This document shows positions 2,542-27,569 of a stretch of 64,000 nt of DNA, in pieces (within the stretch, counting starts at the first letter, position 1; each line of letters opens with the position of its first letter). Position numbers and translations under genes: made by a program. The notes beneath the pieces are model-generated. The model searched no databases. It saw only the letters and a list, made by a program, of their open reading frames with translations, and was not told where the DNA came from. Origin of the DNA: Fidelibacterota bacterium MT.SAG.2 (GTDB lineage Bacteria; Fidelibacterota; SORT01); the NCBI GenBank assembly GCA_004402915.1, contig SORU01000001.1, positions 24,908 to 88,907 on the forward strand. The letters are read 5' to 3'.

Positions 2542-2841
2542 AACACCTTTAATTAATTAATATTATACGGTAAAGAAAACGTAAAAATATCGAATCACAA
2601 AAGCATTGACACTTTTCGGCTTGGGTTTTACTTTTACGGCGTTCTGATGCAATAAAGGTGACGAAAAAGGATGGAGAGACATATAAAATATCGATTAGGA
2701 AACGCGCTTGAGAAAAGCTACGCAGTTGTATTTATAGGAATAAAGAAGATAAACAGTGTTATACATTTCAGGATTGCCTCACGCAGTCTATAATCAGGAA
2801 ACTATTACAACATTAATTAGTAAAAGAAGAGTAGTTTAAGA

Positions 2842-3435
2842 ATGAAACTCGTTATAGCTACCAGAAATGAAGATAAACTTATGGAAATTAAGGAAATATT
2901 TGAAGGGAGCAGTTTTGAACTCAGTTCGTTGAATGAGTTTCCTCAAGCGCCTGAAGTTGAAGAAACCGGAGATACTTTATTAGAGAATGCTTTATTGAAA
3001 GCAGAAAGTGCCGCAAAAGCAACGGGGCTACCGGCATTAGCGGATGATACGGGTCTTTTCGTTGAAGCATTGGATGGAGAGCCGGGTGTGTGGTCTTCAC
3101 GTTATGCGGGAGAAAATGTATCATACGAAGAAAACCGCGAATTGCTTTTGAAGAACTTGAATAACGTCCCTGAAGCGGAGCGCACGGCGAAGTTTGTAAC
3201 GGTTGCCGTATTTGTAGATGAGATTGGACATTTCAAAGCAGAGGGAGAAGTGGAGGGATTGATAACAAGCGAACCGAGGGGGACCAACGGATTTGGCTAT
3301 GATCCACTCTTCCAATCAATATATTCGGAGAAGACGTTCGGAGAATTGACGCGATCAGAAAAAAGGGCATTTAGCCACAGAGGAAAAGCGTTCGAGGAAA
3401 TACTGCGAATATTGGATACCAAGTTTTTAAAATAA
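2842..3435 (+). CDS. rdgB: non-canonical purine NTP pyrophosphatase (RdgB/Ham1 family)
   Basis: MKLVIATRNEDKLMEIKEIF, EPGVWSSRYAG and GTNGFGYDPLF are hallmark Ham1/RdgB motifs. Length 197 aa. Confidence 0.9.
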   Translation: MKLVIATRNEDKLMEIKEIFEGSSFELSSLNEFPQAPEVEETGDTLLENALLKAESAAKATGLPALADDTGLFVEALDGEPGVWSSRYAGENVSYEENRELLLKNLNNVPEAERTAKFVTVAVFVDEIGHFKAEGEVEGLITSEPRGTNGFGYDPLFQSIYSEKTFGELTRSEKRAFSHRGKAFEEILRILDTKFLK

Positions 3436-3502
3436 TAATAGGAGGGACTTATAGAGAAATAATGATACGATGATTGCGTCATAAAAGCCGCATTCAAAAA
3501 AA

Positions 3503-6500
3503 ATGAATAAAAATATTAAAAACAACAACAAAAGCGACAAGCGGCGGTTCTTAACTGAGTGTCGCTGTTATATAACAGTGTTTGTTCTGTCCATGCTTCA
3601 GGTTCCGGCGCTTTTTGCGCAGGAAAATGAACAGTTGTCGATCTATCCTATTCCCGGATTTGTTCCGCTGTTCGAAGGGAGTTTTCAAGCGCTATATTGG
3701 TCTCCTCACGATTCTAATATTGTGATAGATGGCGCGGTACTGCCTTTAAAATCACCCTTGATCAAATCAACAGTAAAAATGGATTCTTCCGGAACATATT
3801 TTATATTTCGAAGAACGTATCGGGGGAAAGATATTCAAGCTCCGACCATCATAAGCCGATCGGATTATTATTTGCTCGCCAAGGATCATAGTTTTTTAGA
3901 ATTTTGGACGGAAAGATTAGAGGAAGTGATAAAACGAGAGAGAGAAGCAGGACGTGGAGGGGCTATCGAAATCGTCGGCGGAACGATTGCGGGACAGGAC
4001 GTAGCGCTTCGGGTGACCGGTAATATCAATATAAAGGGTGGTATTCGAAACGAAAGCAGGAGTACGGTCGCCCTTAATTTTGCAGAGAACCAAAGCACTT
4101 CCTTCAAGCTTGACCAAAAGCAGCGATTCAACATTGAAGGAACTATCGGTGATAAGATTAGTTTGCTTGTCGACCAGGATTCCGAAAGGGATTTTGAGTT
4201 TGAGAATGCGTTAAAAATTCATTACGTGGGAAATGAAGATGAAATCATTAAACGCATAGACGCAGGCAACATCGATCTCACCCTTCCGGGAACTAAGTTC
4301 GCCGTATCAGGCGGGCGCAATCAAGGGTTATTCGGGTTAAAATCACTAATGAAGATTGGTGGTATGGAAATTACGTCAATTGCGAGCGTTGAAAGAGGGA
4401 AAAAAGCAAAGCTGACATTGGATGGTGGAGCAACTTCACAGGTGAAAAGGATAAACGATTACGGTTATTTGAGAAACACATATTTTTTTCTCGATGATTA
4501 CTATAAAAATAGTTTCTATCCAACTATAGAAACTTTATTTCGCGCTAAACCTGCGAACAGGAGGATTCAAAATATAGAGGTTTATCTGACTGCCGGCGGC
4601 ACTGAAACCGGAAGCTTCGAGGCGATAGCCGTGCCCGATCCGAATTCCCCTGAGCAAATTGAAAATTTTACAGATTTCGGAGGAATAAAGCAGCGATTCA
4701 AACGATTGATAAAAAATATAGATTACGAAGTGAGCGAAAATCATGGATTCATCAGGATGAATACATACATGAGTAAGAATGATGTTCTTGCGATAAGCTA
4801 TATCGATTTTGGAGGAGATGTCTTCGGCGGACAAAGTGTGACTCTTGAAGGAGACAGTGCCGAATTGGCTGTATTGAAACTCATAAAGGGACGGAATCCA
4901 TTTCCGACAGATCTGACATGGAATTTGGAATTCAAAAATGTCTATTATCTTGGAGCAACAAATATAAACAGTGAGGGATTCGAATTAAAGATAGTTGATG
5001 ATCGTTCCTCAGGAGAGCCGCAGGAGAGAAATTCGAACGGCATAAATTTTCTTCAGTTATTCGGACTTGACTCCCTTGATGTTAACGGTAAATCACAACC
5101 TGACGAAATTTTCGATATAGACAGTGACGCTATAATCAATTTACAACGAGGAGAGTTATGGTTTCCGGCTTTGAGACCGTTTTATACTCCAAAGGCATTA
5201 GACTCGAGTTTTTACAGTCAGGCTATTTATGACAACACCATACCGACAGAACGGCAAGCGGCAAGCAAATTCAAAATTATTGTCTCTTATAAAAATCGGT
5301 CATCTACAATAAGCCTCGGTTTAAACTTTATTGAGGGAAGCGAAGAGGTTACATTGGACGGTGTAGTGCTCAATAGAGGATCAGACTATACTATAGATAC
5401 TTTCACGGGGCAGTTGACACTTCTAAAGGAAGGCGCCACCGATCCGGGAGCCAACTTAGAAATAAAATACGAAAATAATCAGCTCTTTCAATTGGACAAA
5501 AAATCGCTTTTGGGAACGAGAGCGGAGTATCGCTTTGGAGAAAATTCATTTTTCGGCGGAACATTTCTTTATTACAGCAAGAGTACAATAGACCGGAAGG
5601 TGAGAGTCGGTGAAGAACCGATACGAAATATGCTGTGGGATTTTAACGGTAAATATTCGGCGAAACCTAATTTTATTTCAAGGGGCGTGAATGCTCTTCC
5701 CTTAATTAAAACTGATCAACCTTCTTCGTTCAGCATGGAAGGCGAGATCGCAAGGATAATTCCGAATCCTAACACACTGAACAGTTCTGAAACGGGCGAC
5801 AATCAGGGAGTAGCATATTTAGATGATTTCGAAGCAAGTAAGAGAGTCACATCTCTGACTATAACCCGAAAGCATTGGTATAAAGCATCTCCTCCGGATT
5901 TTAAGATGGATGATGAGAGAGCATTTACATACTGGTACAATCCATTTGATCGTGTGTTAACAACAAATATTTGGAAGGACAGGGATACTGGGAATCAGGC
6001 AGGTAATCTTTTTACTGACGTGCTGAACATAGTAATCGATACAGAAAAAAACCAGAGAGATGTAGCCGACAGCACTATCGCACAGGAGCAACGATGGGGA
6101 GGCGTAATGAGAGCGCTGCCAGCAAGCTTTTTCGATCAAACCCAGACCAAATTTATTGAGATATGGATTAGGGGAAGCGAAGGACAGATTAATTTAGATA
6201 TTGGTCATATTAGCGAAGACGCAAATGATGACAATGTGTACAATACGGAAGATATACCTGTGGCTGGGACTATCGGCAACAATATAGTTGATGAAGGTGA
6301 GGATACGGGAATTGACGGATTGGATGACGAGGATGAGGAGGGCTATGATCCGAACTCCAATCCGGATCCAAATGCGGATAATTGGGAATTTGATTCGAAC
6401 GTCAGACCGCTCAATTATCGTAGAATAAACGGAACAGAGGGTAACCAGAATGATGAAGGCGGGAGAATCCCTGATAGTGAGGATCTCAACAGGAACACAT

Positions 6501-9500
6501 TTCTTGACACGAGAAGCGATTACTTTGAGTACTCGTTCTGGCTGGATGGCAGAGATGATCATCTCGTTGCAGGAGGAGATAAGAATGCCTGGCGCCTTTT
6601 CCGGCTACCGATAAATTCATATAATTATAAATCAGGTGCGAACGTTAATTTCCAAGATATACAATATGTTAGAGTTTGGATAACAGGTCTAACAGGTGAG
6701 AAAGTTGTTCAGATAGCGACTATTGAAATGGTCGCGAACGAGTGGCAGGAGTTAGGAGTAAAACGCAAAGGTTTTGCCGAGTTTGACAAGGAAGATTCCT
6801 CCTTTGCGATTACAATTGTGAATACGGAAGATAACAGCGATATCTATGACGGCAAGAGGGAGAATGGCGATCCGAGTCTTCAACCGCCTCCCGGAGTTGA
6901 GGGAGTTGAAGACCGGATAACAAGGGTAAGAGCGAAAGAACAATCGTTAGTTCTTAAATTTGACGATCTGCCTCCGGGAGCTATCGGAGCAGCAAGGAAG
7001 GTATTTTTCAACGAGCAGGATATAATAAGATACGGAAAGCTCAAGATGTTTGTGCATGGAGATAAACATTTCGGCAAAGACAGTTCTTCGGTAGAGTTTT
7101 TCATGAGGTTAGGCAGAAATGATGACAGTTACTACGAGATATCGGAACCGGTTTATCCCGGGTGGGACGAACGGAATTTTATCGAGATCGACTTAGATCT
7201 ACTGACGCAGCTGAAATTGCGAGAAGGAGACTCCTTCAACATCGGGCAAGGGAAAAAAGTGCGAATAGTGAATTCTCCGTCATTAACGAGACTTAAGCAG
7301 ATTGTAATCGGGATCAAAAATAAGCACAAGGTGGCGCCGATTTCAGGTCAGATCTGGCTTGACGAACTTCGTGTGTCTGAAATCAGCAGGGAGGGAGGAA
7401 TCGCGGCGCGCGCAAGCGCATCACTTAAAATAGCCGACATCGGAAACGTGAACTTTAGTGTGACGAAGCAGGATGCCGATTTTCATCGAATCCAGGAAAA
7501 AATCGGTAAAGCGGGTGGAAGCGCTGAAAATTTTTCGTACAGGTTCAACAATACATTTCAGTCAAACAAACTATTGCCGCCTCGATGGGGGCTTTCAATT
7601 CCGATATCCTTTAATATAAACCGTTCGGTTAGGACTCCCAAATATTTTCCGGGGACAGATATTAGGGTACAGGGAGCTGCTCCCGATTCTATTAAAAATC
7701 TTAATCTCCAAAAGATCTTTAAAATATCTTTTAAGAAGAACAGTAAATCACGCTCAAAGTTCATAAAATACAGTTTGGATAAATCTTCGGCGAATTTGAA
7801 TATCGTAAATCAAAACGGGAGCAGCAACCAAATTGCAAAGAAATTTTCCACTGCATACAATGGTGGCTATGCTTATAATTTACCTATAAAGCGTAAATCA
7901 AAGATAAAGCCGTTTTTCTGGGTTAGACCCGTCCCCTGGCTTGGCAAGAAAATAGGAGATGAAAAATTTAATTATTATCCGAATTCGTTCAACTGGAATA
8001 TAAAAGCGACCGAATCGAAGAGTAACAATATTCCTCGTCGCGGAGTTCCGACAGAATCTTACAAATTTAACATGGTAAGGAACTTTAAAACCGGCTTTCC
8101 TATATTTAAATCGGTAACTCTCGATTATGGAAGAGGCTGGACAAACGATCTAAGTGAATTGAGGCAGAGAAAATCTGACCTGTATTCAGGGGATTTCGGA
8201 ATTCTCACGAATGGAAATGAAAATTTTTCGACCAAGTGGAACCCCAGAATTTTCGACTTTATGTCAACAAGCTTTGGCTACAGCAGCACGTATCGGCTCC
8301 AGATTCAGAGGGTAGACACATTGAGTAGAAACAATGTGAGCAATCAAAATCAGTTTAACGCTAATTTAAATTTCAATCTGAAGAAATTCATGTCAATTTT
8401 CGCCAAAGAAGATACTAAGCCTAAAAAAGGAAAGAGTAAAAAACGGTCAAGCCGCCGCTCGACGAGAGGTAGGGGGAAGAAAAAACAAAAAGATGAAATA
8501 ATTAAAAAGGAAAAAAATAATCCTACTGTCGGTGAACTCTTAACATCACTTTCGAAAAAATTACAACCGGTGAATTTTACTTATTCCAAAAACAAAAATA
8601 TATCGAACCCCGCCTTGTTAGGAGAACCGGGATATGCATATAAATTAGGGTTCACCGAGGATCCGAATGTAGAAAGAGATCCACGTGTTGTTGCTGAAAA
8701 CAGAAAAGGGGAAACAACTAATTTTTCTACTCGAAGCGGACTGAATATAAGCCGGAATTTTACTGTAAATTTTTCCTATAGTCAGAACGAACGAAGAAAT
8801 AGAACCTCTTCGAGCAATTTGAACATAACAAAGACGAGAGATTTTTTCCCGATAGGCGTAACAGGAAGAGACGGCTTCCCCTTTCCAAACTGGAACTTTC
8901 GATTGTCGGGTCTTGAGAAACTGCCGATATTTACTAAGTTTACCAAAAGTGTGAGTCTTGAGCATGGGTTCGGAGGAAAGGAGAATGAAAAGGGATTGGA
9001 GACCATCAGGTTTATACAAGAAACAAATACGGATTCTATATCGAAGGAGATAACTGGTGTGGATTATTCTAAATCATGGCAACCGCTTGTGGGTATGACC
9101 TTTAATTTCAAAAAGAATATTTCTGCTACATTCAGGTTTAACAAATCATCATCAATATCAAATTTCTTCGGTGGAATAAGAGAAGGCACTCAACTTCAGA
9201 ATACATCTAATATTTCTTTAACCGCAAACTACTCAAGACGTGGAGGGCTCAATATTCCTCTTGTTTTCTTAAAGGATTTGAAACTCGATAACCAGGTATC
9301 GTTCTCCCTGACCTATGATAACGGTAAGAGTGAAACGCTTACGAGAACAGGTACAACTGAAGGAGAATTCGCTCCTATTAATCTCTCCAGAAGATGGAGC
9401 TTAAATCCGCAGATGACTTACTCTTTCAGCTCTAAATTGAATGGAGGTGTATTCTTTGAATTCGGAAAGACAGAGACAATACAAGGCTCTACAAGTTTCA

Positions 9501-9541
9501 GGGATTTTGGCGTCACGGTAAACATTGCTATTAGGGGGTAA
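3503..9541 (+). CDS. sprA: giant cell-surface/outer-membrane protein, SprA/Sov-like type IX secretion translocon candidate
   Basis: 2012-aa ORF with a signal peptide ending ALFA|QENE and beta-rich composition with low-complexity loops. It lies in a genome region full of T9SS cargo and PorV-like genes. Size and context fit SprA, but no specific SprA motif could be verified by eye. Confidence 0.55.
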   Translation: MNKNIKNNNKSDKRRFLTECRCYITVFVLSMLQVPALFAQENEQLSIYPIPGFVPLFEGSFQALYWSPHDSNIVIDGAVLPLKSPLIKSTVKMDSSGTYFIFRRTYRGKDIQAPTIISRSDYYLLAKDHSFLEFWTERLEEVIKREREAGRGGAIEIVGGTIAGQDVALRVTGNINIKGGIRNESRSTVALNFAENQSTSFKLDQKQRFNIEGTIGDKISLLVDQDSERDFEFENALKIHYVGNEDEIIKRIDAGNIDLTLPGTKFAVSGGRNQGLFGLKSLMKIGGMEITSIASVERGKKAKLTLDGGATSQVKRINDYGYLRNTYFFLDDYYKNSFYPTIETLFRAKPANRRIQNIEVYLTAGGTETGSFEAIAVPDPNSPEQIENFTDFGGIKQRFKRLIKNIDYEVSENHGFIRMNTYMSKNDVLAISYIDFGGDVFGGQSVTLEGDSAELAVLKLIKGRNPFPTDLTWNLEFKNVYYLGATNINSEGFELKIVDDRSSGEPQERNSNGINFLQLFGLDSLDVNGKSQPDEIFDIDSDAIINLQRGELWFPALRPFYTPKALDSSFYSQAIYDNTIPTERQAASKFKIIVSYKNRSSTISLGLNFIEGSEEVTLDGVVLNRGSDYTIDTFTGQLTLLKEGATDPGANLEIKYENNQLFQLDKKSLLGTRAEYRFGENSFFGGTFLYYSKSTIDRKVRVGEEPIRNMLWDFNGKYSAKPNFISRGVNALPLIKTDQPSSFSMEGEIARIIPNPNTLNSSETGDNQGVAYLDDFEASKRVTSLTITRKHWYKASPPDFKMDDERAFTYWYNPFDRVLTTNIWKDRDTGNQAGNLFTDVLNIVIDTEKNQRDVADSTIAQEQRWGGVMRALPASFFDQTQTKFIEIWIRGSEGQINLDIGHISEDANDDNVYNTEDIPVAGTIGNNIVDEGEDTGIDGLDDEDEEGYDPNSNPDPNADNWEFDSNVRPLNYRRINGTEGNQNDEGGRIPDSEDLNRNTFLDTRSDYFEYSFWLDGRDDHLVAGGDKNAWRLFRLPINSYNYKSGANVNFQDIQYVRVWITGLTGEKVVQIATIEMVANEWQELGVKRKGFAEFDKEDSSFAITIVNTEDNSDIYDGKRENGDPSLQPPPGVEGVEDRITRVRAKEQSLVLKFDDLPPGAIGAARKVFFNEQDIIRYGKLKMFVHGDKHFGKDSSSVEFFMRLGRNDDSYYEISEPVYPGWDERNFIEIDLDLLTQLKLREGDSFNIGQGKKVRIVNSPSLTRLKQIVIGIKNKHKVAPISGQIWLDELRVSEISREGGIAARASASLKIADIGNVNFSVTKQDADFHRIQEKIGKAGGSAENFSYRFNNTFQSNKLLPPRWGLSIPISFNINRSVRTPKYFPGTDIRVQGAAPDSIKNLNLQKIFKISFKKNSKSRSKFIKYSLDKSSANLNIVNQNGSSNQIAKKFSTAYNGGYAYNLPIKRKSKIKPFFWVRPVPWLGKKIGDEKFNYYPNSFNWNIKATESKSNNIPRRGVPTESYKFNMVRNFKTGFPIFKSVTLDYGRGWTNDLSELRQRKSDLYSGDFGILTNGNENFSTKWNPRIFDFMSTSFGYSSTYRLQIQRVDTLSRNNVSNQNQFNANLNFNLKKFMSIFAKEDTKPKKGKSKKRSSRRSTRGRGKKKQKDEIIKKEKNNPTVGELLTSLSKKLQPVNFTYSKNKNISNPALLGEPGYAYKLGFTEDPNVERDPRVVAENRKGETTNFSTRSGLNISRNFTVNFSYSQNERRNRTSSSNLNITKTRDFFPIGVTGRDGFPFPNWNFRLSGLEKLPIFTKFTKSVSLEHGFGGKENEKGLETIRFIQETNTDSISKEITGVDYSKSWQPLVGMTFNFKKNISATFRFNKSSSISNFFGGIREGTQLQNTSNISLTANYSRRGGLNIPLVFLKDLKLDNQVSFSLTYDNGKSETLTRTGTTEGEFAPINLSRRWSLNPQMTYSFSSKLNGGVFFEFGKTETIQGSTSFRDFGVTVNIAIRG

Positions 9542-9545
9542 TTAA

Positions 9546-10460
9546 TTGAAGTTATCAGTCTCGGCAATGCTTAGTTTTCTATTTGTTCTGACCCTGTTTT
9601 CCTGCGGCGGGAATAAACCGGATTTTGATGGAGACAGCGCATTTGGCTATCTCGTCAAACAGTGTGATTTCGGTCCTCGAAATCCCGGTTCGAGGGGTCA
9701 TAAAAATACGCTTAATTATCTGTTAACTGAAATGAGAACTTTTGCGGACAGTGTAAAGGTGCAAAAATTCAGCCATTTTGATAAAAGGACGGGCATATCG
9801 CTCGACTTGACAAATATCATTGCCTCATTTAAAGTTTCTGATGCTAATCGAGTTTTGTTAGCGGCTCATTGGGATACGAGACCGCGTTCGGATCAGGATA
9901 AAATGCCATCGAAACGAAATCAACCGCTACTTGGCGCAAACGACGGTGCAAGCGGAGTAGCTGTGTTATTAGAGTTGGCGAAAGTATTTAGCGAAAACCC
10001 CCCTCCTGTCGGTGTTGATCTGATTCTCTTTGATGGTGAAGATTTCGGCGAAGAGGGTGACTTGGACAGGTACTTTCTCGGTTCGAGACATTTCGCAAAG
10101 AACTTCACAGGGCAAAAACCAAAGTGGGCGATTATAATAGATATGGTCGGAGATGCTGAACTCGAGCTGCCGATAGAACGGTATTCTTTTGAGCGAAATA
10201 AGAAATTGGTAGAAAAAGTGTGGGATGCAGCAGAGAGAGCAGGAGCATCACAATTCAAGCGAAGATTGGGAAGCTATGTTCAAGATGATCATCTTATGTT
10301 ATACGAATATGCCGGTATCGAAGCGATAGATATTATTGATTTTGATTACACCCGCGGCGGCATAAATCTCTGGCATACATCCCTTGATACCCCCGAGATG
10401 TGCAGTCCTGCAAGCCTCGCCGCAGTCGGAAGAACGCTGATAGAGCTTATTTATGAATAG
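9546..10460 (+). CDS. M28-family zinc peptidase-fold lipoprotein, glutaminyl-peptide cyclotransferase (QC)-like
   Basis: Lipobox LTLFSCGG. M28 motifs AAHWDTRP, GANDGASGVAVLLELAKVF (compare human QC ...MLELARAL), LILFDGEDFGEEG and HTSLD. Length 304 aa, as in Bacteroidetes lipoprotein QCs. The gene starts 4 bp after sprA. Confidence 0.5.
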   Translation: MKLSVSAMLSFLFVLTLFSCGGNKPDFDGDSAFGYLVKQCDFGPRNPGSRGHKNTLNYLLTEMRTFADSVKVQKFSHFDKRTGISLDLTNIIASFKVSDANRVLLAAHWDTRPRSDQDKMPSKRNQPLLGANDGASGVAVLLELAKVFSENPPPVGVDLILFDGEDFGEEGDLDRYFLGSRHFAKNFTGQKPKWAIIIDMVGDAELELPIERYSFERNKKLVEKVWDAAERAGASQFKRRLGSYVQDDHLMLYEYAGIEAIDIIDFDYTRGGINLWHTSLDTPEMCSPASLAAVGRTLIELIYE

Positions 10461-10544
10461 TCGAGTAATCATCACAATTTCATCTGAAAAAATAAATCAG
10501 TATATTACCGCTTGTTGATTTATTAAAATTGAGTATTAAAACAG

Positions 10545-11126
10545 ATGTCATTGAGAGAAGATATAGCAGGTTATGCGCTTACAATATTTTCCCGTACTGA
10601 AGGGAAGAAGAGATCTCAACTCTCTATCGGCAGAAGCATAGAGCAGAGTTCAGGCGTTTTACTCTGCATGCCGGAAGATCACAATCAATTCAGGATTGCG
10701 AGGTATGTGTTCAGGGGGGTATTGGAATCCCCCGTTTCAAAACGCATAACCGTGCTAATGCATGAAAGCGTTGAAGCGGATTATCGAATAAAAAGTAACG
10801 CTCGGAAAATCGTGATAAAAGAGACCGATCTCGGATTTTGGAAAATTCCCAAACCTTCATGGATAATTGAACAGGGGTTTTCTACCTATGACCTGATAGT
10901 GGACCTTAACACAAATTATCATTTATACGCAGCATATCTGTCGATGAAATTGGGAGACGGGCTGATCATAGGCTTTGCATGGGAAGGCGCGGATGAGTTT
11001 TATAATGTGCTGCTTGAAATGAATGAAACCAATTCGAGTTTAGAGAATACTTACAGAACCATAAGGGATGAATATACGAACCTGATACCGCTTGAAAATC
11101 TGAAACTCTCGAGCAGGGCAAAATAG
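10545..11126 (+). CDS. hypothetical cytoplasmic protein (no signal peptide)
   Basis: ORF of 193 aa in the same-strand gene string after the QC-like gene. No recognisable motif. Confidence 0.4.
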   Translation: MSLREDIAGYALTIFSRTEGKKRSQLSIGRSIEQSSGVLLCMPEDHNQFRIARYVFRGVLESPVSKRITVLMHESVEADYRIKSNARKIVIKETDLGFWKIPKPSWIIEQGFSTYDLIVDLNTNYHLYAAYLSMKLGDGLIIGFAWEGADEFYNVLLEMNETNSSLENTYRTIRDEYTNLIPLENLKLSSRAK

Positions 11127-11134
11127 ATGAACGG

Positions 11135-12404
11135 ATGCAAGGACCCGGCAAAGGAGTTATTGTGAATTCTATGATATTGGCGTTGTTTGAAGATGAATTT
11201 GCAGGGAACTTGAATCCCTTGGCGCATCTACGCCCTGTATACGATTTGAAGTTCGGAATTCGTTCGATCAGAGAAAAATATCTGCGGATTTTTGGAGATG
11301 AGTTCATATCTTTGCACTGTCGCGCTGAATTAGCTTCCGTGATGGCGGACCGAAATCCAAAAGCCGAAATAAATACATACTCGGCAGATAAATATATTTT
11401 CATTAACGGACGTTCTGTTATTCCGGAAAAAGAGTTAGAAAAAATCAGTTCCGATGAAGACTTGCTTTATACTAATAACGGGAAAATTGCGGCAGCTGTT
11501 TTGACCGGCGATAATCTTAAAAAAATCAGAGCAGCGGGAGGCAAATTACTAAGCAGAGAAGATTTTCCAGACCTAAATGAAAAGGCAATAAAATGCTTAT
11601 GGCTGGATTATCCATGGGAGCTGTTTCTTGAAAATGGAAATGAGATAGAAAGAGAATTTGAAGGTCCGAAGATGGAGGGTAATCTTTACGACAGCGCTGT
11701 TGTCTTGAACAGCGACATGATATCGGTTAGTGAGGGAGTTAAAATTAAACCTGGAACCGTTCTCGATGCAGAGGAGGGACCAATCATAATTGCTCCGGGC
11801 GTTCATATCATGTCGAATTCCGTCATACAGGGACCTGTCTATATCCGGGGAGAACTCTGTTATAAAAGCGGGAGCGAGAATTTACGGAAGTACATCTATC
11901 GGCGAGGAATGTAAGGTCGGCGGGGAAGTCAGTAATTCAATAATTCACTCCTACTCGAATAAGCAGCATGATGGCTATCTGGGAAATTCTTATATAGGCA
12001 AGTGGGTTAACTTGGGCGCCGACAGCAACAATAGCGATCTTAAGAATAATTATCGGAAGGTGAAATTTTATGTCGATGGAAAATTCATAGACACGGGCAC
12101 AATACATTGCGGACTGATCATGGGTGATCATACCAAAGTAGGGATCAATACTATGTTCAACACGGGAACTAACGTTGGAACCGCGTGTAATATTTATGGA
12201 GGAGGATTTCCACCTAAGTTTATTCCTTCATTTTCTTGGGGAGGCGCTGACGGTATGACAGAGCACATCTTGGAGAAAGCCATCGATACGGCAGCGCGGG
12301 TGATGGAGAGGCGAGAAGTTACGCTGGCTTCATCAGAGATCGATTTACTTAATAGCCTGTTTGATAGAACTGCGGCGGAACGCAATAAGGCATTTTCAGG
12401 CTAA
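11135..12404 (+). pseudogene. frameshifted putative sugar nucleotidyltransferase with C-terminal left-handed beta-helix (GlmU-like) domain
   Basis: ORF 11135..11914 (nucleotidyltransferase-like N-terminus leading into hexapeptide repeats) and ORF 11790..12404 (continuing hexapeptide/LbH repeats: IGEECKVGGEVSNSIIH..., IGKWVNLGADS...) are the same protein in frames offset by -1. The frame change maps to the ccgggg run near 11835-11850. This could be a true pseudogene, a homopolymer sequencing error, or a programmed frameshift. Confidence 0.55.
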
Positions 12405-13060
12405 TGGAGTTACCTGACGCGGGAATAGTCCTCATAGCATCGGCTTCTGCTACAGCGTTTTTGCATGCCGTAATTCCGGATCATTGGCTGCCCTTCGTAC
12501 TCGTCGGCAAGGCACAAGGTTGGTCAAAGGGAAAGACTCTCTCCTATTCCGCTCTATCTGCCACCTTGCATGTAGTAGTATCGATCGGATTGGGCACATT
12601 AGGTTATATAATCGGAATAGCGTCGGCTTCCTCAATTGGAGAAAATATAGAATCGGTCATAGGTATAAGTCTTTTATTATTCGGAATATTTTACTCCGTC
12701 TGGGGATTGAAGTCACAAGGAGGATCTCTTCACATCGGGCACTCTCACGGACCACACTCGCATGAAGATAACCTGAAGGGAAAGAAAGGAAATATAACCG
12801 GTTGGGGATTGGCATTGGTCATGGGTCTTAATCCATGTGTTGTGGCGCTGCCGGTGATTTCTGCTACAGTGTCTAAAGGATTAATCGTAATGTTGCTCGC
12901 TTCAGCGGCGTTTGCCTTAACAACGATTCTTCTGCTTGTCGGGCTTACCTCTTTGGGGCTTCTGACTTCTTACAAATTTAAATTTAAATTCCTTGAGAAA
13001 TACGGAGAGGTTCTGTCAGGGATAATTCTGTCTCTTACCGGCATAGCGTTTTTAATCTGA
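12404..13060 (+). CDS. NicO/HoxN-like metal (Ni/Co) transporter-type membrane protein with His-rich loop
   Basis: Six predicted TM helices. LHAVIPDHWLPF resembles the HAxDADH motif of nickel/cobalt transporters. Central loop HIGHSHGPHSHED. Confidence 0.4.
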   Translation: MELPDAGIVLIASASATAFLHAVIPDHWLPFVLVGKAQGWSKGKTLSYSALSATLHVVVSIGLGTLGYIIGIASASSIGENIESVIGISLLLFGIFYSVWGLKSQGGSLHIGHSHGPHSHEDNLKGKKGNITGWGLALVMGLNPCVVALPVISATVSKGLIVMLLASAAFALTTILLLVGLTSLGLLTSYKFKFKFLEKYGEVLSGIILSLTGIAFLI

Positions 13061-13174
13061 TGGGAATCAATTGCTGTATTGTAAAACAGTATATGAACTA
13101 ACTATCTGAATTTGAAATAAAATAAGTCAAAACATTTATTCAAAAATTTCGTAATTATTTAGGTTGCATAAATT

Positions 13175-23307: not shown

Positions 23308-24216
23308 TCAGATACCTATCCCGAAGCTTATCTGGTGCGTATCGCCGAGGTTGAAATCGAAGGGGAGGTAGGCGTAATCAAAAGAGTATCGGTTTAGTCT
23401 GATGCCGATACCTGCCGTGATGCCGGAGGAATTTTCGGAGTTGCGTCTATAGCCGCCCCGCAAGCTGAGCATATCGTTGTGAATCAGTTCTCCGCCGAGC
23501 CGAACAAATGAATCGGATTCTAAATATTTACCGATGTCAAATGCCCAATTGAATCTGAGAGAAGTTGTCGGATCAAAACCGCTGCTCAGACCACCCGTAA
23601 TTCGTGTCGGCAGCGATGTTGATTCGTTACTCAGCGTTGACATGCTTCCGAGGTCTTTCAGAACTAAGGCGGATTTAAGATTAAAGAAATTGAGATTTTT
23701 AATCAGACCGAAATCAAGAGCAAACCCGTTTGCGGAGTAAATATGGATTTTTTCGTAGAGAAACTTTGCGGTAGCTCCTATCTTCAAATTACCATTCACA
23801 GCTGTCGCGGCACTGAATGCCATTGCCAATGAATTCGAGCTGAAATAACCCAACGGTTCCACAGTGGGACGTTCATCCCGCCTTTCGATATCGCCCACAC
23901 CGGATAGAGCAACACTTAGCCCGAAGTTCAGTTTATCTGAAGGAATATTCAGACCGAGAAATTGATTGTTGGAGCCGGCAAGCCACTCTTGATTAGAAAA
24001 GATGACGTTCATCCTGTCGGAAACGGCTATTCCGGCTGGATTCCAGTACGCCGCCGATGCGTCTGAAGCGTTGGCGACCGCCGCCCCGCCCATTGCCGAA
24101 GAGGCTGCATCCACACCGATTTTAAGGAACGACATACCGGTTGCAGCGCCGTCTCCGGCATAGAGGAAAGTTTGGAACAGCAGAAAAGCAACCGAAATGT
24201 TAATAAAATTTCTCAT
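23308..24216 (-). CDS. PorV/PorQ-family T9SS-associated outer-membrane beta-barrel protein (paralog 1)
   Basis: Signal peptide. N-terminal motif LKIGVDAASSAMGGAAVANASDASAAYWNPAGI, C-terminal ...SFGIGI. The motif is shared with ORFs 24217..25140 and 46437..47429. Confidence 0.55.
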   Translation of the reverse strand: MRNFINISVAFLLFQTFLYAGDGAATGMSFLKIGVDAASSAMGGAAVANASDASAAYWNPAGIAVSDRMNVIFSNQEWLAGSNNQFLGLNIPSDKLNFGLSVALSGVGDIERRDERPTVEPLGYFSSNSLAMAFSAATAVNGNLKIGATAKFLYEKIHIYSANGFALDFGLIKNLNFFNLKSALVLKDLGSMSTLSNESTSLPTRITGGLSSGFDPTTSLRFNWAFDIGKYLESDSFVRLGGELIHNDMLSLRGGYRRNSENSSGITAGIGIRLNRYSFDYAYLPFDFNLGDTHQISFGIGI

Positions 24217-25140
24217 TTAGAATATAAACTCCCAACTGAACAAATGAGTTCCCCCTTCGCCGACAAATTCCGGCTGAAAAGCATAATCTATGTTCGTATA
24301 AATTCCTTCAGATACAAAATAATACAGCCCGCCACCAAATGAGACAGAGGCGTCATCAATGCCGAATCTCAGCGAATAGAGTTCATTTCGTTGATACTCT
24401 ACGCCGAAACGGAAACGTTCCTCCTGCCGTTGGTTAAACTCCAAAGAGGATGCGATCAATAACCGGTTATCAAGCAAGTACGAACCGCCAATGTGAACGC
24501 TGTAGGGGATCTCATCGGTTGATTTTGTTCCGAATTCAAAAATCTTTTGGGTGTCCCATGTCAACCCGCCGTTATAATCCTTTAAGGTCACGCCCAAGCG
24601 CAGCGCGTCGAATGGAATAACCATAATACCGAAATCGAAAGCCAAGTCGTTTGCGTTGAGTTTTTCATCAACCAGGTCAAGTGATTGAGTCAGAATTTTC
24701 ATCGTGAGACCTAATGCCAACTTTTCGTGAAATTTATTCGAGAATGATATTCCAAATGCGTTCATGTTTTCGCTGTAATCGAACGTATGATTCCCCGACA
24801 GGTCCCGCCCGTCAATATTATCCGTGCCCGCGCCAAGCCAATATATCGAAAGCCCCGCAGTCGGTTTCAGGTTCTGGGAGTAAGAGATAAAATGGAACTG
24901 CCTGTGGAGCGTTAGGAACGAGTAAGTCGTAACAAAATGTCTCTTGGTTAAGAATGGGAGACCCGCCGGATTGTAGTACGCCGCGAATCCATCGTCAGCC
25001 ACTGCCGTGTGCGCTCCGCCCATCGATATTCCTCTCGCGCCGAGACCCATTCGCAGGAACGGAGCGGCAAAGCCGCCGTCACCCTGAGCAAATAGCGTAG
25101 CTGGCAGAAGAAGCAAAAATAGTGAAAATATTTTTATCAT
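24217..25140 (-). CDS. PorV/PorQ-family T9SS-associated outer-membrane beta-barrel protein (paralog 2)
   Basis: Signal peptide ending LFA|QGDG. Motif LRMGLGARGISMGGAHTAVADDGFAAYYNPAGL. Ends in WEFIF. Stop is adjacent to the start of paralog 1. Confidence 0.55.
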   Translation of the reverse strand: MIKIFSLFLLLLPATLFAQGDGGFAAPFLRMGLGARGISMGGAHTAVADDGFAAYYNPAGLPFLTKRHFVTTYSFLTLHRQFHFISYSQNLKPTAGLSIYWLGAGTDNIDGRDLSGNHTFDYSENMNAFGISFSNKFHEKLALGLTMKILTQSLDLVDEKLNANDLAFDFGIMVIPFDALRLGVTLKDYNGGLTWDTQKIFEFGTKSTDEIPYSVHIGGSYLLDNRLLIASSLEFNQRQEERFRFGVEYQRNELYSLRFGIDDASVSFGGGLYYFVSEGIYTNIDYAFQPEFVGEGGTHLFSWEFIF

Positions 25141-25141
25141 A

Positions 25142-26740
25142 TTATTCGATCACCATAACTTTACCCCAAAGCGCTTCTTCTCTGCCGGAGACGCTTCTGA
25201 TGGATATTTTGTAAAAATAAGTGCCGTTGGCAACGATATTCCCGAATCCGTTCCTGCCTGTCCAAACCTCATCCCATTCGCTCGCATTGCGCAGGACTCC
25301 CTTCACGGGTTCGGCTACCAATGTCATTGAAAAATCATACACGCTTATAGATACGGTGGATTCTTCGGAAAGTGAATAATGAAACCGGACGTGACCATCT
25401 CCTCCAAATGTGTTATGCCTTGCCGGAGAAAACGGATTAGGATATGAATACGTGCGTACGCTTCCCGGTTCGGATGTTGATTTTTGAGCACGAAGAATAG
25501 TCCATGTGAAACCGTCATTATCGGTATGAACGAGTCCGTCCGCTGTTCCAGCCCATAATCTTTTATCGGGCATTACGATTGCGGAATAGACCGTTTGAGT
25601 ATAGAGGGGAGTATCAGTTTCCCGGTCTGTTATATCCGAGAAAGATGCCCATGTGATACCGCCGTCAACAGACTTGAAAAGACCGCTGTCCGCCGCGGCA
25701 TATAGAACAGAATCATCTGAGGCGAAATTCCAAACCCTTTGACCGCGCAAAACAGTTCGCCATGATATGCCTCCGTCTTTGGTAAGCGAGACACCGAGAA
25801 ATTCACCTGCGACTGTGGGTCGAGTTGCCGCAAGAATAGTCTCTTCACCATTCCATTGGTGCCGGTGAAGAGAAACTGCCCAATCTCCGCTTATTCCGCT
25901 TCTGTTCCGGCTTGTAAATTTATACCATGAAACGCCGCCGTCGATAGAACGGTTGATGCCTCCCGCCGTTCCTACTATTACGGTATCACCCCACGCTATG
26001 ACGGAAAAGGGCCGATGATTAAAGCTGCCCGTAACGCCGAAAAAAGTGTTATTTACAGGGCTGAGGTCGAAATCGTGAATCGAAGAATCGGTCAGCACAT
26101 CTTCCTCGTCAGGAGGAAGCACGATCCGTTTCCATGTAGCGCCGAAGTCGGTTGAAGAACGAACGCCGCCTGCGAACGAAGTTATATAAATCGTTGTATC
26201 TTCCGTAATTGCTATCGCTATATCAAATGTAACGTTATCAACGTCAATGACGATCGGGAGCGCGTCAATCGTATCACCGAATATAATTTCAAACAGTGCG
26301 TCATCCGCATCTTTAGGCTGATCGATATGAGTCCAGCTGAATCCGTTGTCCATAGAAATGGTTAAACCGCTTCCAGTGCCGTTAGATTCCTCTACATCAG
26401 GATCGTCAAATGCATTTGCGACGATCACTATATCTCCCATAACGGCGAGAGCTGAAACTCCTCCCTTTCCAATGTCGAGTTCATCACGAGGAATGTATTC
26501 TTCAAATGTTGTTCCGTTGTCAGACGTAAAATTCAGACCTTTGCCTGTCCCGATCCAGATGGAATTAAGGTTTCCCATTTTCAAGTCGGTTACCGAGTTG
26601 CCGAGCAAACGCGCGCTTTTGTGGAGAGTCGAATGCCCATCTAAATTAAAGTCCCTTATCTGCTGCGCAAAAGAGAGACGGCTCAAAGAGAAAAGAATTA
26701 AGAGAGACGTGAGCAGAGTTGTTTTCGTAAACAGCTTCAT
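25142..26740 (-). CDS. BNR/Asp-box repeat protein with T9SS type-A C-terminal sorting domain
   Basis: Signal peptide SFA|QQIR. Six Asp-box motifs (SMDNGFSW, STDFGATW, SIDGGVSW, TKDGGISW, SVDGGITW, TDNDGFTW). C-terminal domain YSYPNPFSP...GTYFYKISIRS...GKVMVIE. Confidence 0.7.
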   Translation of the reverse strand: MKLFTKTTLLTSLLILFSLSRLSFAQQIRDFNLDGHSTLHKSARLLGNSVTDLKMGNLNSIWIGTGKGLNFTSDNGTTFEEYIPRDELDIGKGGVSALAVMGDIVIVANAFDDPDVEESNGTGSGLTISMDNGFSWTHIDQPKDADDALFEIIFGDTIDALPIVIDVDNVTFDIAIAITEDTTIYITSFAGGVRSSTDFGATWKRIVLPPDEEDVLTDSSIHDFDLSPVNNTFFGVTGSFNHRPFSVIAWGDTVIVGTAGGINRSIDGGVSWYKFTSRNRSGISGDWAVSLHRHQWNGEETILAATRPTVAGEFLGVSLTKDGGISWRTVLRGQRVWNFASDDSVLYAAADSGLFKSVDGGITWASFSDITDRETDTPLYTQTVYSAIVMPDKRLWAGTADGLVHTDNDGFTWTILRAQKSTSEPGSVRTYSYPNPFSPARHNTFGGDGHVRFHYSLSEESTVSISVYDFSMTLVAEPVKGVLRNASEWDEVWTGRNGFGNIVANGTYFYKISIRSVSGREEALWGKVMVIE

Positions 26741-26741
26741 G

Positions 26742-27569
26742 CTAGTCTATCAGTGTTACGGTTACTTTGAGTGTATCACTTTTCAGACCTGCAAAATCTT
26801 CGGCTTTTATCAAGAAATCGAAAATTCCCGTCTTTCCATCTTCATTGGCTGGATTGGTAGGCTGCGTAACGGAGTAAATTCCGTTACCGGCGATTTTATC
26901 ACCAAACAATCCGTCATCCCTCATAACGAAAGTAACATCTTGTTTGAGGGTAGAGTCGTTATGGATAAATACATCGTAAGTGACTTTCCGAATATCCGAT
27001 AAACCGTTTGAATCTGAGACGGCAACTTCTATGAATATGTTGTCGCCAAGAGCTACAGAATCTGTCATTGAGAATAAGGCAATTTTAGGCGGATAGTTCG
27101 TGATATCCAAGAGTAGTTCGAAATTATCAGCCGCATTTGAATCAAAATCAAAGGCGGAAATCAGAAACCGGAAACTTCCAAGCCCTGAATCAGTGAGTGA
27201 ATGGGAGAGAAGAGCTGAAAATCTCCCGTCTCCGCGGATAATGTCGCCGTTGATCCCACTGTCATTCAGCGCGCCTGTAAGAGAATCGACCCGCCCAGTC
27301 TTGAACGCTTTAAATGTTACCGAGGCAACAGTTGGCAGACCCTGTGGATCCGATAAAAGAGCTTCCAAGAAAAAACGTTGCGTGATATCATTATATTCTG
27401 CCCGAACACTATCAATAGACGGCGAAACTGATAGAGTGTCGGTGTCGTCTGTTTCGATGGGGAAATTCTCTTCGCAGGAACTGACCAACACAAAAAGTGA
27501 AATCAGCACGACGAGTGTTCGCGCCTGAGTATAAAAATATGTTTTATTCATCGTAAAAATTTCGGGCAA
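26742..27569 (-). CDS. hypothetical lipoprotein with Ig-like repeats
   Basis: Lipobox LVSSCEEN. Beta-rich repeated segments. Stop is 1 nt from the start of the BNR cargo gene. Confidence 0.45.
   Translation of the reverse strand: MPEIFTMNKTYFYTQARTLVVLISLFVLVSSCEENFPIETDDTDTLSVSPSIDSVRAEYNDITQRFFLEALLSDPQGLPTVASVTFKAFKTGRVDSLTGALNDSGINGDIIRGDGRFSALLSHSLTDSGLGSFRFLISAFDFDSNAADNFELLLDITNYPPKIALFSMTDSVALGDNIFIEVAVSDSNGLSDIRKVTYDVFIHNDSTLKQDVTFVMRDDGLFGDKIAGNGIYSVTQPTNPANEDGKTGIFDFLIKAEDFAGLKSDTLKVTVTLID

What the first reader, a model, noticed from the sequence alone, without database searches (positions are those of the whole stretch)
3503..10460. SprA-like T9SS translocon gene is followed after 4 bp by a glutaminyl-cyclase-like M28 lipoprotein gene
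The 2012-aa SprA/Sov-like gene and the 304-aa M28-fold lipoprotein are separated by only 4 bp. They sit in a same-strand gene string (rdgB-sprA-QC-hyp-NTase/LbH-NicO) with gaps of 0-114 bp. In Bacteroidetes, mammalian-type QC lipoproteins pyroglutamylate the N-terminal Gln left after signal peptidase I cleavage. Nearly every exported protein in this window, including SprA itself and its cargo, is predicted to expose Gln at +1. Physical coupling of the translocon gene with the N-terminal-processing enzyme gene is, to my knowledge, not a described arrangement. It suggests co-regulation of translocon supply and cargo N-terminal maturation.
Basis: partly seen in the sequence, partly recalled or inferred. 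Interest (0 to 1): 0.6.

Follow-up and report, generated by a model that had tools for sequence, protein, structure and literature searches.

The report
Conserved sprA–glutaminyl cyclase operon
In this Marinimicrobia genome the gene for the type IX secretion pore (SprA) is followed after 4 bases by the gene for the enzyme that caps exported proteins with pyroglutamate, and the same gene pair turns up in at least eight bacterial phyla, though not in the Bacteroidota sampled here.

Summary
Window 3503-9541 encodes a 2012-aa SprA/Sov translocon (TIGR04189, 839 bits against a cutoff of 200). Window 9546-10460 encodes a 304-aa lipoprotein that is a bacterial type II glutaminyl cyclase (QC). Its nearest solved structures, by sequence and by fold, are the Bacteroides, Porphyromonas and Tannerella QCs, and the PgQC zinc triad, catalytic Glu, Asp-Gly and Trp are all present. 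The 4-nt gap and the start codon are conserved in close relatives.

The adjacency is not chance. Of 80 QC loci fetched from other genomes, 77 had enough upstream sequence to test. In 43 of those a SprA gene ends right at the QC start, and 26 of 42 measurable gaps lie within ±10 nt, many of them overlaps. These loci come from Marinimicrobia (18 of 18 testable), Calditrichota, KSB1, Zixibacteria, Ignavibacteria, Zhuqueibacter and Gemmatimonadota. None of nine loci labelled Bacteroidota or Bacteroidetes has the pair. The flanking genes differ between phyla, and SprA and QC divergence co-vary (Mantel r=0.79).

In the window, 13 of 17 signal-peptidase-I substrates expose Gln at +1. I found no paper describing the arrangement. 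Co-transcription and any functional coupling are inferred, not shown. An equally deep QC-prmA synteny warns that conserved adjacency alone does not prove a shared function.

The parts
2842..3435 (+). rdgB/HAM1 non-canonical NTP pyrophosphatase, the gene upstream of sprA
   Evidence: PF01725 at 2.7e-62 and TIGR00042 at 185 bits. It lies directly upstream of sprA in 15 related loci, ten labelled Marinimicrobia or Neomarinimicrobiota and five unlabelled, and not in other phyla.
3503..9541 (+). sprA/sov, the T9SS outer-membrane translocon (2012 aa). Predicted signal peptide with cleavage ALFA|QENEQ
   Evidence: TIGR04189 at 838.9 bits (cutoff 200) and PF14349 at 4e-44. N-terminal sequence.
9533..9538 (+). 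Shine-Dalgarno-like AGGGGG inside the last sprA codons, 7 nt before the QC start
   Evidence: Sequence. The AGGGG core is conserved in relatives. SD-like motifs precede 28 of 49 window genes, against 23% for random positions in the window.
9542..9545 (+). 4-nt spacer (TTAA) between the sprA stop and the QC start
   Evidence: L081, L082 and L083 have the same 4-nt spacing.
9546..10460 (+). Type II (mammalian-like, PgQC-like) glutaminyl cyclase lipoprotein, 304 aa. Lipobox Cys20, Zn ligands D133/D166/H277, catalytic E165, W276
   Evidence: PF04389. PDB sequence hits. AF2 model and Foldseek search. Residue mapping to PgQC. The residues are invariant in 74 homologues.
23308..27569 (-). Displaced T9SS-related block: a lipoprotein (F6, 26742-27569), a 532-aa family F3 protein with weak PorU-tail and PorZ hits (25142-26740), and two PorV/PorQ-family barrels (24217-25140 and 23308-24216). 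In most related Marinimicrobia this block follows QC directly on the same strand
   Evidence: NCBIfam PorV_fam at 154.9 and 97.5 bits, with weak PorU-tail and PorZ hits on the 532-aa protein. Family assignment by BLASTP against the neighbours in 80 loci.

Best explanation
sprA and the QC gene form an ancient, tightly linked and probably translationally coupled two-gene unit.

SprA is the outer-membrane T9SS translocon. The downstream protein is a catalytically competent mono-zinc type II glutaminyl cyclase, tethered as a lipoprotein on the periplasmic side. It converts the N-terminal Gln left by signal peptidase I into pyroglutamate.

This organism follows the Q-rule. SprA itself, two of the three PorV/PorQ-family proteins and the CTD-bearing T9SS cargo in the window are all predicted QC substrates. 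Expressing QC from the sprA transcript would tie capping capacity to production of the secretion apparatus.

The pair was most likely already linked in a common ancestor of the FCB-group phyla and Gemmatimonadota. It was later separated in Bacteroidota, Chlorobi, Kryptonia and Balneolales.

Shown here: the gene identities, the active-site residues, the adjacency and its spacing, its conservation, the co-divergence of the two genes, and the Gln bias. Inferred: co-transcription, translational coupling, QC activity and localisation, and any selective advantage of the linkage.
For: Identity of the two genes.

PgQC hallmarks (Zn ligands Asp149/Asp183/His299, Glu182, Asp149-Gly150, Trp298; PMC7948796) map to D133/D166/H277, E165, D133-G134 and W276. 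Most are invariant in 74 homologues, whether or not the QC is sprA-adjacent (G134, D166 and W276 each vary in 1-3 sequences).

Synteny: 43 of 77 testable QC loci have SprA ending at the QC start on the same strand. All 18 testable Marinimicrobia loci do. So do loci from Caldithrix/Calditrichota, KSB1, Zixibacteria, Ignavibacteria, Zhuqueibacter and Gemmatimonadota. The SprA ORFs in the distant phyla pass the TIGR04189 cutoff at 452-656 bits.

Spacing: 26 of 42 gaps are within ±10 nt. Ten of these are -1 or -4 overlaps.

Flanks differ by lineage: rdgB, lptFG or murB upstream, and prmA, F6, a comEA-like gene or nucleases downstream. Only the pair is constant.

The pair survived a rearrangement in the window's own lineage that moved the neighbouring block (F6, F3, two PorV/PorQ-family genes) 13 kb away and inverted it.

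SprA and QC pairwise identities co-vary (Mantel r=0.79, 0 of 2000 permutations). Median identities are 31% for SprA and 44% for QC.

There is no terminator-like site between the genes, and an SD-like AGGGGG lies 7 nt before the QC start.

Q-rule: 13 of 17 SPI-type proteins in the window show AXA|Q, against 2.6% Gln overall. T9SS context: three PorV/PorQ-family proteins and CTD cargo.

In P. gingivalis, pGlu stabilises periplasmic and T9SS proteins, and 86% of T9SS proteins follow the Q-rule (PMC10653852).
Against: There are no transcript or protein data.

QC-prmA is also conserved (prmA follows QC in 26 loci across several phyla), although a ribosomal L11 methyltransferase has no obvious link to QC. 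Deep synteny can therefore persist without shared function.

In Bacteroidota, the only phylum where both systems have been studied experimentally, the genes are unlinked. PgQC is first in a PG_2157-2159 operon, and 0 of 9 Bacteroidota-labelled loci show adjacency. Bochtler et al. concluded that pGlu does not control T9SS targeting.

QC also occurs with no SprA gene within the 10 kb flanks fetched on either side of it, in Poribacteria and Planctomycetales loci.

The 80 loci were the ones most similar to the window's QC, so 43 of 77 is not an unbiased frequency.

The PgQC Phe294 position lies in a loop that is two residues shorter here and is modelled with low confidence.
Confidence: 0.6

Rival explanations
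1. QC is a dedicated T9SS biogenesis factor in these lineages. SprA, PorV/PorQ or cargo would specifically need N-terminal pyroglutamate for stability while in the periplasm or for assembly. The Q-rule would then have arisen together with the T9SS.
For: The operon is conserved across phyla with overlapping stop and start codons. In most Marinimicrobia the operon runs on into a block holding a family F3 protein (weak PorU-tail and PorZ hits) and two PorV/PorQ-family genes. SprA and QC co-diverge. T9SS and high Q-values co-occur phylogenetically (PMC5837995). Gingipains held in the periplasm are less stable when Gln+1 is mutated (PMC10653852).
Against: QC has homologues in lineages where no SprA gene lies within 10 kb of it (Poribacteria, Planctomycetales). 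In the window, Gln+1 is also found on proteins that are not obviously T9SS-related, such as a TonB-dependent receptor and a TPR protein. Only about half of the SprA homologues show an AXA|Q site by a crude scan. P. gingivalis experiments argued against a role in T9SS targeting.
Confidence: 0.17
2. The adjacency is a frozen remnant of ancestral gene order with no present functional meaning. QC is a general housekeeping enzyme that happens to sit after sprA.
For: QC-prmA adjacency is comparably widespread without an evident functional link. Several major lineages have lost the sprA link without losing either gene.
Against: The pair outlasts repeated turnover of both flanks and a local inversion. 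Near-zero or overlapping spacing is kept in most lineages, which is not expected for neutral neighbours at about 31-44% protein identity.
Confidence: 0.2
3. The 304-aa protein is an M28 aminopeptidase, not a cyclase.
For: The only Pfam hit is Peptidase_M28, and NCBIfam gives weak aminopeptidase and DapE hits. His108 and Asp199 occupy the positions of the second zinc-site ligands of the aminopeptidases (plus my own knowledge). Many database names say 'M28 family peptidase'.
Against: All top sequence and fold matches are biochemically characterised or reannotated QCs (PMC7948796). The protein has the bacterial-QC-specific Asp in place of Glu at the second ligand, Asp-Gly instead of the cis Asp-Asn of aminopeptidases, and Trp instead of Tyr before the His ligand. 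The NCBIfam aminopeptidase scores are about 10 times below their cutoffs.
Confidence: 0.03

Closest known systems
Porphyromonas gingivalis PgQC (PG_2157) and other Bacteroidota type II glutaminyl cyclases (TfQC 6qro, BtQC 7d1d/4fuu, PdQC 3tc8)
   Same: Same fold (TM about 0.81-0.90) and 34-38% identity over the structural alignments. Same Zn triad Asp/Asp/His, catalytic Glu, Asp-Gly and Trp-His motif, and the same lipoprotein signal. The host organism follows the Q-rule, as Bacteroidota do.
   Different: The host is a Marinimicrobia, outside the phylum for which the Q-rule was named. The loop before Trp-His is two residues shorter and lacks the aligned Phe294. The gene sits 4 nt after sprA, whereas PgQC heads an operon with an Fe-S protein gene and hemG.
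SprA/Sov T9SS translocon of Flavobacterium johnsoniae and P. gingivalis (TIGR04189)
   Same: Passes the equivalog model. It is a large protein of about 2000 aa with an N-terminal signal peptide, and it co-occurs with PorV/PorQ-family proteins and CTD cargo.
   Different: It is 2012 aa against a model length of 2319, and the best matched stretch covers residues 396-1760. It is translationally linked to QC. No such partner is reported in the T9SS interactome paper or the review I checked.
Phylogenetic co-occurrence of T9SS and the Q-rule (Bochtler et al. 2018, PMC5837995)
   Same: The same two systems are associated.
   Different: That paper noted co-occurrence at the level of species and argued against a mechanistic link. 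Here the link is physical: an operon-like gene pair conserved across phyla. The paper's text contains no occurrence of 'operon', and none of the other papers I checked describes such a pair.

Membership tests
T9SS translocon SprA/Sov (TIGR04189) | Scores above the curated equivalog cutoff | tested here: met
   838.9 bits against a cutoff of 200. PF14349 SprA_N at 151.8 bits.
T9SS translocon SprA/Sov (TIGR04189) | Very large exported outer-membrane protein with a Sec signal peptide | tested here: met
   2012 aa. The N-terminus has a charged n-region, a hydrophobic core and ALFA|QENEQ. This is a heuristic reading, as no SignalP was available.
T9SS translocon SprA/Sov (TIGR04189) | Genome encodes other T9SS parts and CTD-bearing cargo | tested here: met
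   Three PorV/PorQ-family proteins score above the PorV_fam cutoff. Two proteins match TIGR04183 Por_Secre_tail above its cutoff. PorK/L/M/N were not seen within the 64 kb.
T9SS translocon SprA/Sov (TIGR04189) | 36-strand barrel that translocates CTD cargo | not tested
   No structure prediction or experiment was done for the 2012-aa protein.
Bacterial type II (PgQC-like) glutaminyl cyclase | M28 alpha/beta fold closest to solved QCs rather than to aminopeptidases | tested here: met
   phmmer gives QCs at 1e-48 to 3e-54 and the aminopeptidase 6hc6 at 2.5e-7. The top 13 Foldseek hits are bacterial QCs, with TM up to 0.87-0.90.
Bacterial type II (PgQC-like) glutaminyl cyclase | Mono-zinc triad Asp149/Asp183/His299 with catalytic Glu182 (PgQC numbering) | tested here: met
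   These map to D133, D166, H277 and E165. D133, E165 and H277 are invariant in 74 homologues and D166 is replaced by Glu in one.
Bacterial type II (PgQC-like) glutaminyl cyclase | Asp-Gly after the first ligand (a trans peptide that abolishes the second zinc site) and Trp before the His ligand | tested here: met
   D133-G134 and W276-H277 are present. The peptide geometry itself cannot be judged from sequence.
Bacterial type II (PgQC-like) glutaminyl cyclase | Phe294 (hQC Phe325) lining the substrate pocket | tested here: inconclusive
   In the profile alignment, Phe294 falls in a two-residue insertion that this family lacks. The corresponding loop 269-275 has pLDDT below 50.
Bacterial type II (PgQC-like) glutaminyl cyclase | Lipoprotein signal peptide with lipobox Cys | tested here: met
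   MKLSVSAMLSFLFVLTLFS-C20. Cys sits at this column in 55 of 74 homologues.
Bacterial type II (PgQC-like) glutaminyl cyclase | Cyclises N-terminal Gln to pGlu, and is anchored on the periplasmic face of the inner membrane | not testable with these tools
   Needs an enzyme assay and cell fractionation.
Di-zinc M28 aminopeptidase | Tyr before the His ligand, a cis Asp-Asn/Asp peptide, Glu as second ligand, and closest relatives being aminopeptidases | tested here: not met
   The protein has Trp276, Asp-Gly and Asp166. NCBIfam aminopeptidase and DapE hits score 32-34 bits against cutoffs near 300.
Q-rule organism (Bochtler et al. 2018) | Most signal-peptidase-I substrates expose Gln at +1 (Bacteroidetes above 48%, mean 71%) | tested here: met
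   13 of 17 (76%) in the window by manual -3/-1 reading. Gln follows an AXA-type site in more of the 17 proteins (13) than any other residue (next is Asp, 7), and Gln is 2.6% of residues overall. The sample is small and the method heuristic.

The most novel reading that the evidence does not exclude
The sprA-QC pair marks QC as an original component of the T9SS gene set. N-terminal pyroglutamylation (the 'Q-rule') would have evolved together with the type IX secretion system in the common ancestor of the FCB-group phyla and Gemmatimonadota, because the translocon, its PorV/PorQ partners or cargo waiting in the periplasm need the cap. Bacteroidota, where the two have been studied and judged independent, would be the derived state in which the genes drifted apart.
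Probability: 0.2. Interest if true: 0.75.

Novelty: new variant of a known kind. Interest (0 to 1): 0.55.

Why it matters
Both parts are known families, but their linkage appears to be undescribed. The T9SS and the Q-rule have been noted to co-occur, and a mechanistic link was considered and set aside on P. gingivalis data. A near-zero-spacing gene pair kept across at least eight phylum-level lineages, despite turnover of everything around it, is independent genomic evidence that the two systems are tied. It also places the Q-rule and a type II QC well outside Bacteroidota, in Marinimicrobia (SAR406), an abundant uncultured ocean lineage. It offers concrete experiments: test QC dependence of SprA, PorV and cargo stability in organisms that keep the operon. 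Bacterial QC is already a drug target in periodontitis, so a wider view of what it is coupled to has some practical interest.

Tried and rejected
(1) My own crude, Gln-blind signal-peptide and cleavage predictor misplaced several sites. For SprA it chose VPA|LFAQ instead of LFA|Q. It still gave 8 of 26 Gln, against 2.6% Gln overall. I replaced it with a count of which residue follows any AXA-type site.

(2) The same crude approach on all 80 loci, grouped by phylum, is diluted by membrane proteins. The Bacteroidota positive control reached only 31%. I use it only as a hint.

(3) I tested whether SprA homologues themselves always start with Gln. Only 15 of 32 have an AXA|Q site in the first 90 residues, so it is not a general rule.

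(4) The literature search for 'SprA' by word start matched 'Sprague' and was useless. Whole-word searches found nothing on the arrangement. The paper behind PDB entries 7d1b and 7d18 was not in the library.

(5) The sigma-70 promoter and intrinsic-terminator scans of 2400-13300 gave counts (32 and 14) somewhat above the shuffle means (24.3 and 9.0) and were not informative on operon boundaries. They did show that no terminator-like site lies between sprA and QC.

(6) I considered a reciprocal survey from the sprA side.

(7) I rejected the aminopeptidase reading (see rivals).
Full report
**1. The observation**

The ORF list shows 3503..9541 + (2012 aa, ATG) and 9546..10460 + (304 aa, TTG). Both lie in a same-strand run that starts with a gene at 2842..3435 and continues to 16422. 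The sequence reads ...AGG GGG TAA TTAA TTG AAG..., so the two ORFs are 4 nt apart.

The mechanical TTG start is probably the real one, for three reasons.
- In an 84%-identical relative (L081/L082) the aligned codon is ATG.
- In a 71% relative (L083) it is TTG, with a 4-nt spacer in each case.
- It yields a normal lipoprotein signal, MKLSVSAMLSFLFVLTLFS-C20. The internal ATG at 9567 would leave no charged n-region.

An SD-like AGGGGG (9533-9538) lies 7 nt before the start. SD-like motifs precede 28 of 49 genes in the window, against 23% of random positions, so this genome appears to use them. No terminator-like site lies between the two genes.

**2. What the two genes are**

The 2012-aa protein scores 838.9 bits on the NCBIfam equivalog TIGR04189 'T9SS outer membrane translocon Sov/SprA' (cutoff 200). 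It also matches Pfam SprA_N.

The 304-aa protein matches Pfam Peptidase_M28. Its closest solved relatives by sequence are the Bacteroidota type II glutaminyl cyclases:
- 3tc8 at 3e-54 and 4fuu/7d1d (BtQC) at 1e-53;
- TfQC 6qro at 1e-49 and PgQC 6qql at 6e-48;
- by contrast, an aminopeptidase (6hc6) at 2.5e-7 and human QC at about 1e-4.

An AlphaFold2 model built on 25 homologues (mean pLDDT 87.3) finds bacterial QC structures as its top 13 Foldseek matches. These include BtQC, PdQC, PgQC, TfQC, Fimbriiglobus QC and Acidobacteriales QC, with TM up to 0.87-0.90. Animal QCs follow.

The JBC paper on PgQC and TfQC (PMC7948796) lists the marks that separate these enzymes from di-zinc aminopeptidases:
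- Zn ligands Asp149, Asp183 (bacterial-QC-specific) and His299;
- a trans Asp149-Gly150 peptide;
- Trp298 and Phe294.

Through the HMM alignment to 6qql, these map to D133, D166, H277, D133-G134 and W276, with the catalytic Glu at E165. Nearly all are invariant in 74 homologues (D166, G134 and W276 vary in one to three sequences). The one exception is Phe294. It sits in a two-residue loop insertion that this family lacks, and that loop (269-275) is poorly modelled.

I conclude that this is a PgQC-like QC lipoprotein. Activity and membrane location are inferred.

**3. Source organism and context**

The nearest database protein (97% identical) is from 'Candidatus Marinimicrobia bacterium'. The window also encodes:
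- three PorV/PorQ-family proteins (23308-24216 on the minus strand, 24217-25140 on the minus strand, and 46437-47429 on the plus strand);
- proteins with a T9SS type A sorting domain (39927-41960 and 48836-51157).

A T9SS is therefore plausibly functional.

I found 17 proteins with a signal-peptidase-I type N-terminus. Of these, 13 have Gln directly after a canonical -3/-1 site. They include SprA (ALFA|QENEQ), two of the three PorV/PorQ-family proteins and both clear CTD cargo proteins. Gln follows such a site in more of these proteins (13) than any other residue (Asp is next with 7), although Gln is only 2.6% of all residues. That 76% sits within the Bacteroidetes range reported by Bochtler et al. 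(above 48%, mean 71%). This Marinimicrobia genome therefore follows the Q-rule.

**4. Is the adjacency conserved?**

This was the decisive test. A scan of one genome per GTDB species, using a QC alignment, returned 80 loci with 41-52% identity to the window QC and 10-kb flanks. I then ran tblastn with the window SprA.
- 43 loci have a SprA homologue immediately upstream on the same strand, ending at the QC start.
- 3 loci have too little upstream sequence to test.
- 34 have no SprA in the flanks.

By record title, the positive loci are:
- all 18 testable Marinimicrobia/Neomarinimicrobiota loci;
- Caldithrix and Calditrichaeota (L013, L064);
- KSB1 (L025);
- Zixibacteria (L024, L034, L046);
- Ignavibacteria (L022, L057, L058, L075);
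- Zhuqueibacter (L056);
- Gemmatimonadota (L062, L068, L079);
- one 'uncultured Cytophagia' MAG (L038);
- eleven loci labelled only 'bacterium' or 'uncultured bacterium' (L002, L007, L014, L020, L035, L036, L037, L053, L065, L067 among them).

The SprA ORFs from Gemmatimonadota, Zixibacteria and an unclassified locus pass the TIGR04189 cutoff at 452-656 bits. Contigs holding closer relatives (84% and 71%), and a Calditrichaeota contig, show the same pair with Pfam SprA_N followed by Peptidase_M28.

The negative loci are nine labelled Bacteroidota or Bacteroidetes, six Poribacteria, and Kryptonia, Fibrobacteres, Cloacimonadota, Balneolales, Chlorobiaceae, Kapaibacteriota and Planctomycetales. 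One KSB1 locus, one Calditrichaeota locus, three Ignavibacteria loci and a few unlabelled loci are also negative.

Choosing QC starts that give a signal peptide, 26 of 42 measurable gaps lie within ±10 nt. Ten of these are -1 or -4 overlaps. In all, 34 gaps are at most 60 nt. The eight larger ones (77-303 nt) are in Ignavibacteria, Zixibacteria, Zhuqueibacter and Gemmatimonadota.

**5. Is only the pair conserved?**

I clustered all ORFs of the 80 loci. The results by position:
- Upstream of sprA: rdgB in 15 Marinimicrobia-type loci, divergent lptF/lptG in KSB1-like and Gemmatimonadota-like loci, and murB in Ignavibacteria and Zixibacteria.
- Downstream of QC: prmA, a lipoprotein family (F6), a comEA-like HhH protein, or nucleases.

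In most Marinimicrobia and in Caldithrix the string is rdgB-sprA-QC-(prmA)-F6-F3-F4-F4, often continuing into F9 and F16 in the Marinimicrobia-type loci.
- F3 is a family of about 540 aa. Its window member has weak PorU-tail and PorZ hits.
- F4 is the PorV/PorQ family.
- F9 is a polysaccharide deacetylase and F16 an asparaginase II.

In the window's own lineage, the F6-F3-F4-F4 block lies inverted at 27569..23308, and F9 and F16 lie at 34749-37511. Yet rdgB-sprA-QC is intact. The pair has therefore outlasted both flank turnover between phyla and a local rearrangement.

Pairwise identities of SprA and QC among 30 complete pairs co-vary (Mantel r=0.79, 0 of 2000 permutations), with medians of 31% and 44%. 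This fits long joint inheritance or joint transfer.

A hybrid arrangement in Zhuqueibacter (sprA-QC-x-prmA-x-ppx) bridges the two common types. One is the sprA-QC-prmA type. The other is the type seen in Bacteroidota, Kryptonia and Balneolales, with prmA and ppx following QC (often preceded by family F11). This is consistent with an ancestral sprA-QC-prmA order from which sprA was later detached.

**6. Caveats**
- The loci were the 80 most similar to the window's QC out of at least 597, so 43 of 77 is not a population frequency.
- Taxon labels are those on MAG records.
- prmA follows QC in 26 loci from many phyla, though no functional tie is apparent. Conserved adjacency alone therefore does not prove shared function.
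- In P. gingivalis the QC gene heads a different operon, PG_2157-2159 (PMC10653852).
- Bochtler et al. argued that pGlu formation does not control T9SS targeting (PMC5837995 section 27).
- QC homologues also occur with no SprA gene within the 10 kb flanks fetched (Poribacteria, Planctomycetales).
- Co-transcription is inferred from spacing only.

**7. Mechanism**

The most likely reading (about 0.6) runs as follows.
- One transcript carries sprA and QC, with QC translation initiated at or overlapping the sprA stop.
- QC, as a periplasm-facing lipoprotein, cyclises the Gln exposed by signal peptidase I on the bulk of exported proteins.
- Those substrates include SprA, PorV/PorQ-family barrels and CTD cargo. 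pGlu protects them from periplasmic exopeptidases, as shown for P. gingivalis proteins.
- Linkage to sprA scales capping capacity with the secretion apparatus.

The rivals are a dedicated T9SS role for QC (about 0.17), a functionless frozen synteny (about 0.2), and an aminopeptidase rather than a cyclase (about 0.03).

**8. Novelty**

The held library has only seven papers that mention both 'glutaminyl cyclase' and T9SS. The main ones I checked do not report a sprA/sov-QC gene pair. The T9SS interactome paper and a recent review do not mention a glutaminyl cyclase at all. Within the limits of that library, the arrangement is undescribed. Both genes are ordinary members of known families. What is new is their deep, tight linkage and the extension of the Q-rule with a type II QC to Marinimicrobia. 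I therefore rate it a new variant of a known kind, of moderate interest.

Noticed in passing
window 11135-12404 (indel near 11845): The alternative GlmU-like gene (TIGR03991; NTP_transf_4 plus Hexapep) is split into two overlapping ORFs, 11135-11914 and 11790-12404. Close relatives have a single 410-411-aa ORF. An alignment shows one extra base (CC against C, before GGGG) in the window. This is either a sequencing or assembly error or a real frameshift.
   Followed up: partly
window 23308-27569 (minus strand), 34749-35804 and 36582-37511: In most related Marinimicrobia, four genes directly follow QC: a lipoprotein, a 532-aa family F3 protein (weak PorU-tail and PorZ hits) and two PorV/PorQ-family genes. 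In this window that block is inverted about 13 kb downstream. The deacetylase and asparaginase II genes that normally come next are 24-27 kb away. This is a lineage-specific rearrangement that spared rdgB-sprA-QC.
   Followed up: yes
26 of loci L001-L080, e.g. L012:965-1834, L017, L021, L027, L033, L071, L077: prmA (ribosomal protein L11 methyltransferase, PF06325) follows QC, directly or one ORF further on, in 26 loci. These include Bacteroidota, Kryptonia, Balneolales, Kapaibacteriota, Ignavibacteria and some Marinimicrobia. This is a second deep synteny around QC with no obvious functional rationale.
   Followed up: partly
L043, L045, L049, L050, L051, L061 (Poribacteria) and L080 (Planctomycetales): These loci encode QC homologues with all catalytic residues. 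None has a SprA neighbour, and 0 of 17 crude signal-peptide candidates show AXA|Q. QC may serve a narrower substrate set there. The sample is tiny and the predictor crude.
   Followed up: no
L028:6027, L029:6048, L038:10001, L046:10007, L063:1396: Some sprA-adjacent QC homologues lack the lipobox Cys. They have a signal-peptidase-I type signal instead, in several cases ending in A|Q (for example ...LMAQTGF and ...VAGQNPPEF). The cyclase would then be soluble in the periplasm and could be its own substrate.
   Followed up: no
L022, about 13-16 kb (downstream of QC): A second SprA-like segment lies a few kb downstream of the sprA-QC pair in one Ignavibacteria locus. It could be a paralogue or a fragment.
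   Followed up: no
window-wide, the 20 nt upstream of each gene: Shine-Dalgarno-like motifs precede 28 of 49 genes, against 23% of random positions in the window. From my own knowledge, Bacteroidota largely lack SD-led initiation, so this differs from them even though the organism shares the T9SS and the Q-rule.
   Followed up: partly
window 43601-47429 and 13175-16422: A TonB-dependent receptor (43601-46447) is followed, with an 11-nt overlap, by a PorV/PorQ-family barrel (46437-47429). A second CarboxypepD_reg/Plug receptor (13175-15493) is followed by a DUF4249 lipoprotein (15490-16422).
   Followed up: no
window 10545-11126: The 193-aa ORF directly after QC has no Pfam or NCBIfam match and no signal peptide. 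An ORF of identical length occupies the same position in the 84%-identical relative (L081, L082), and tblastn finds no match to it in any of the 80 genome loci.
   Followed up: partly
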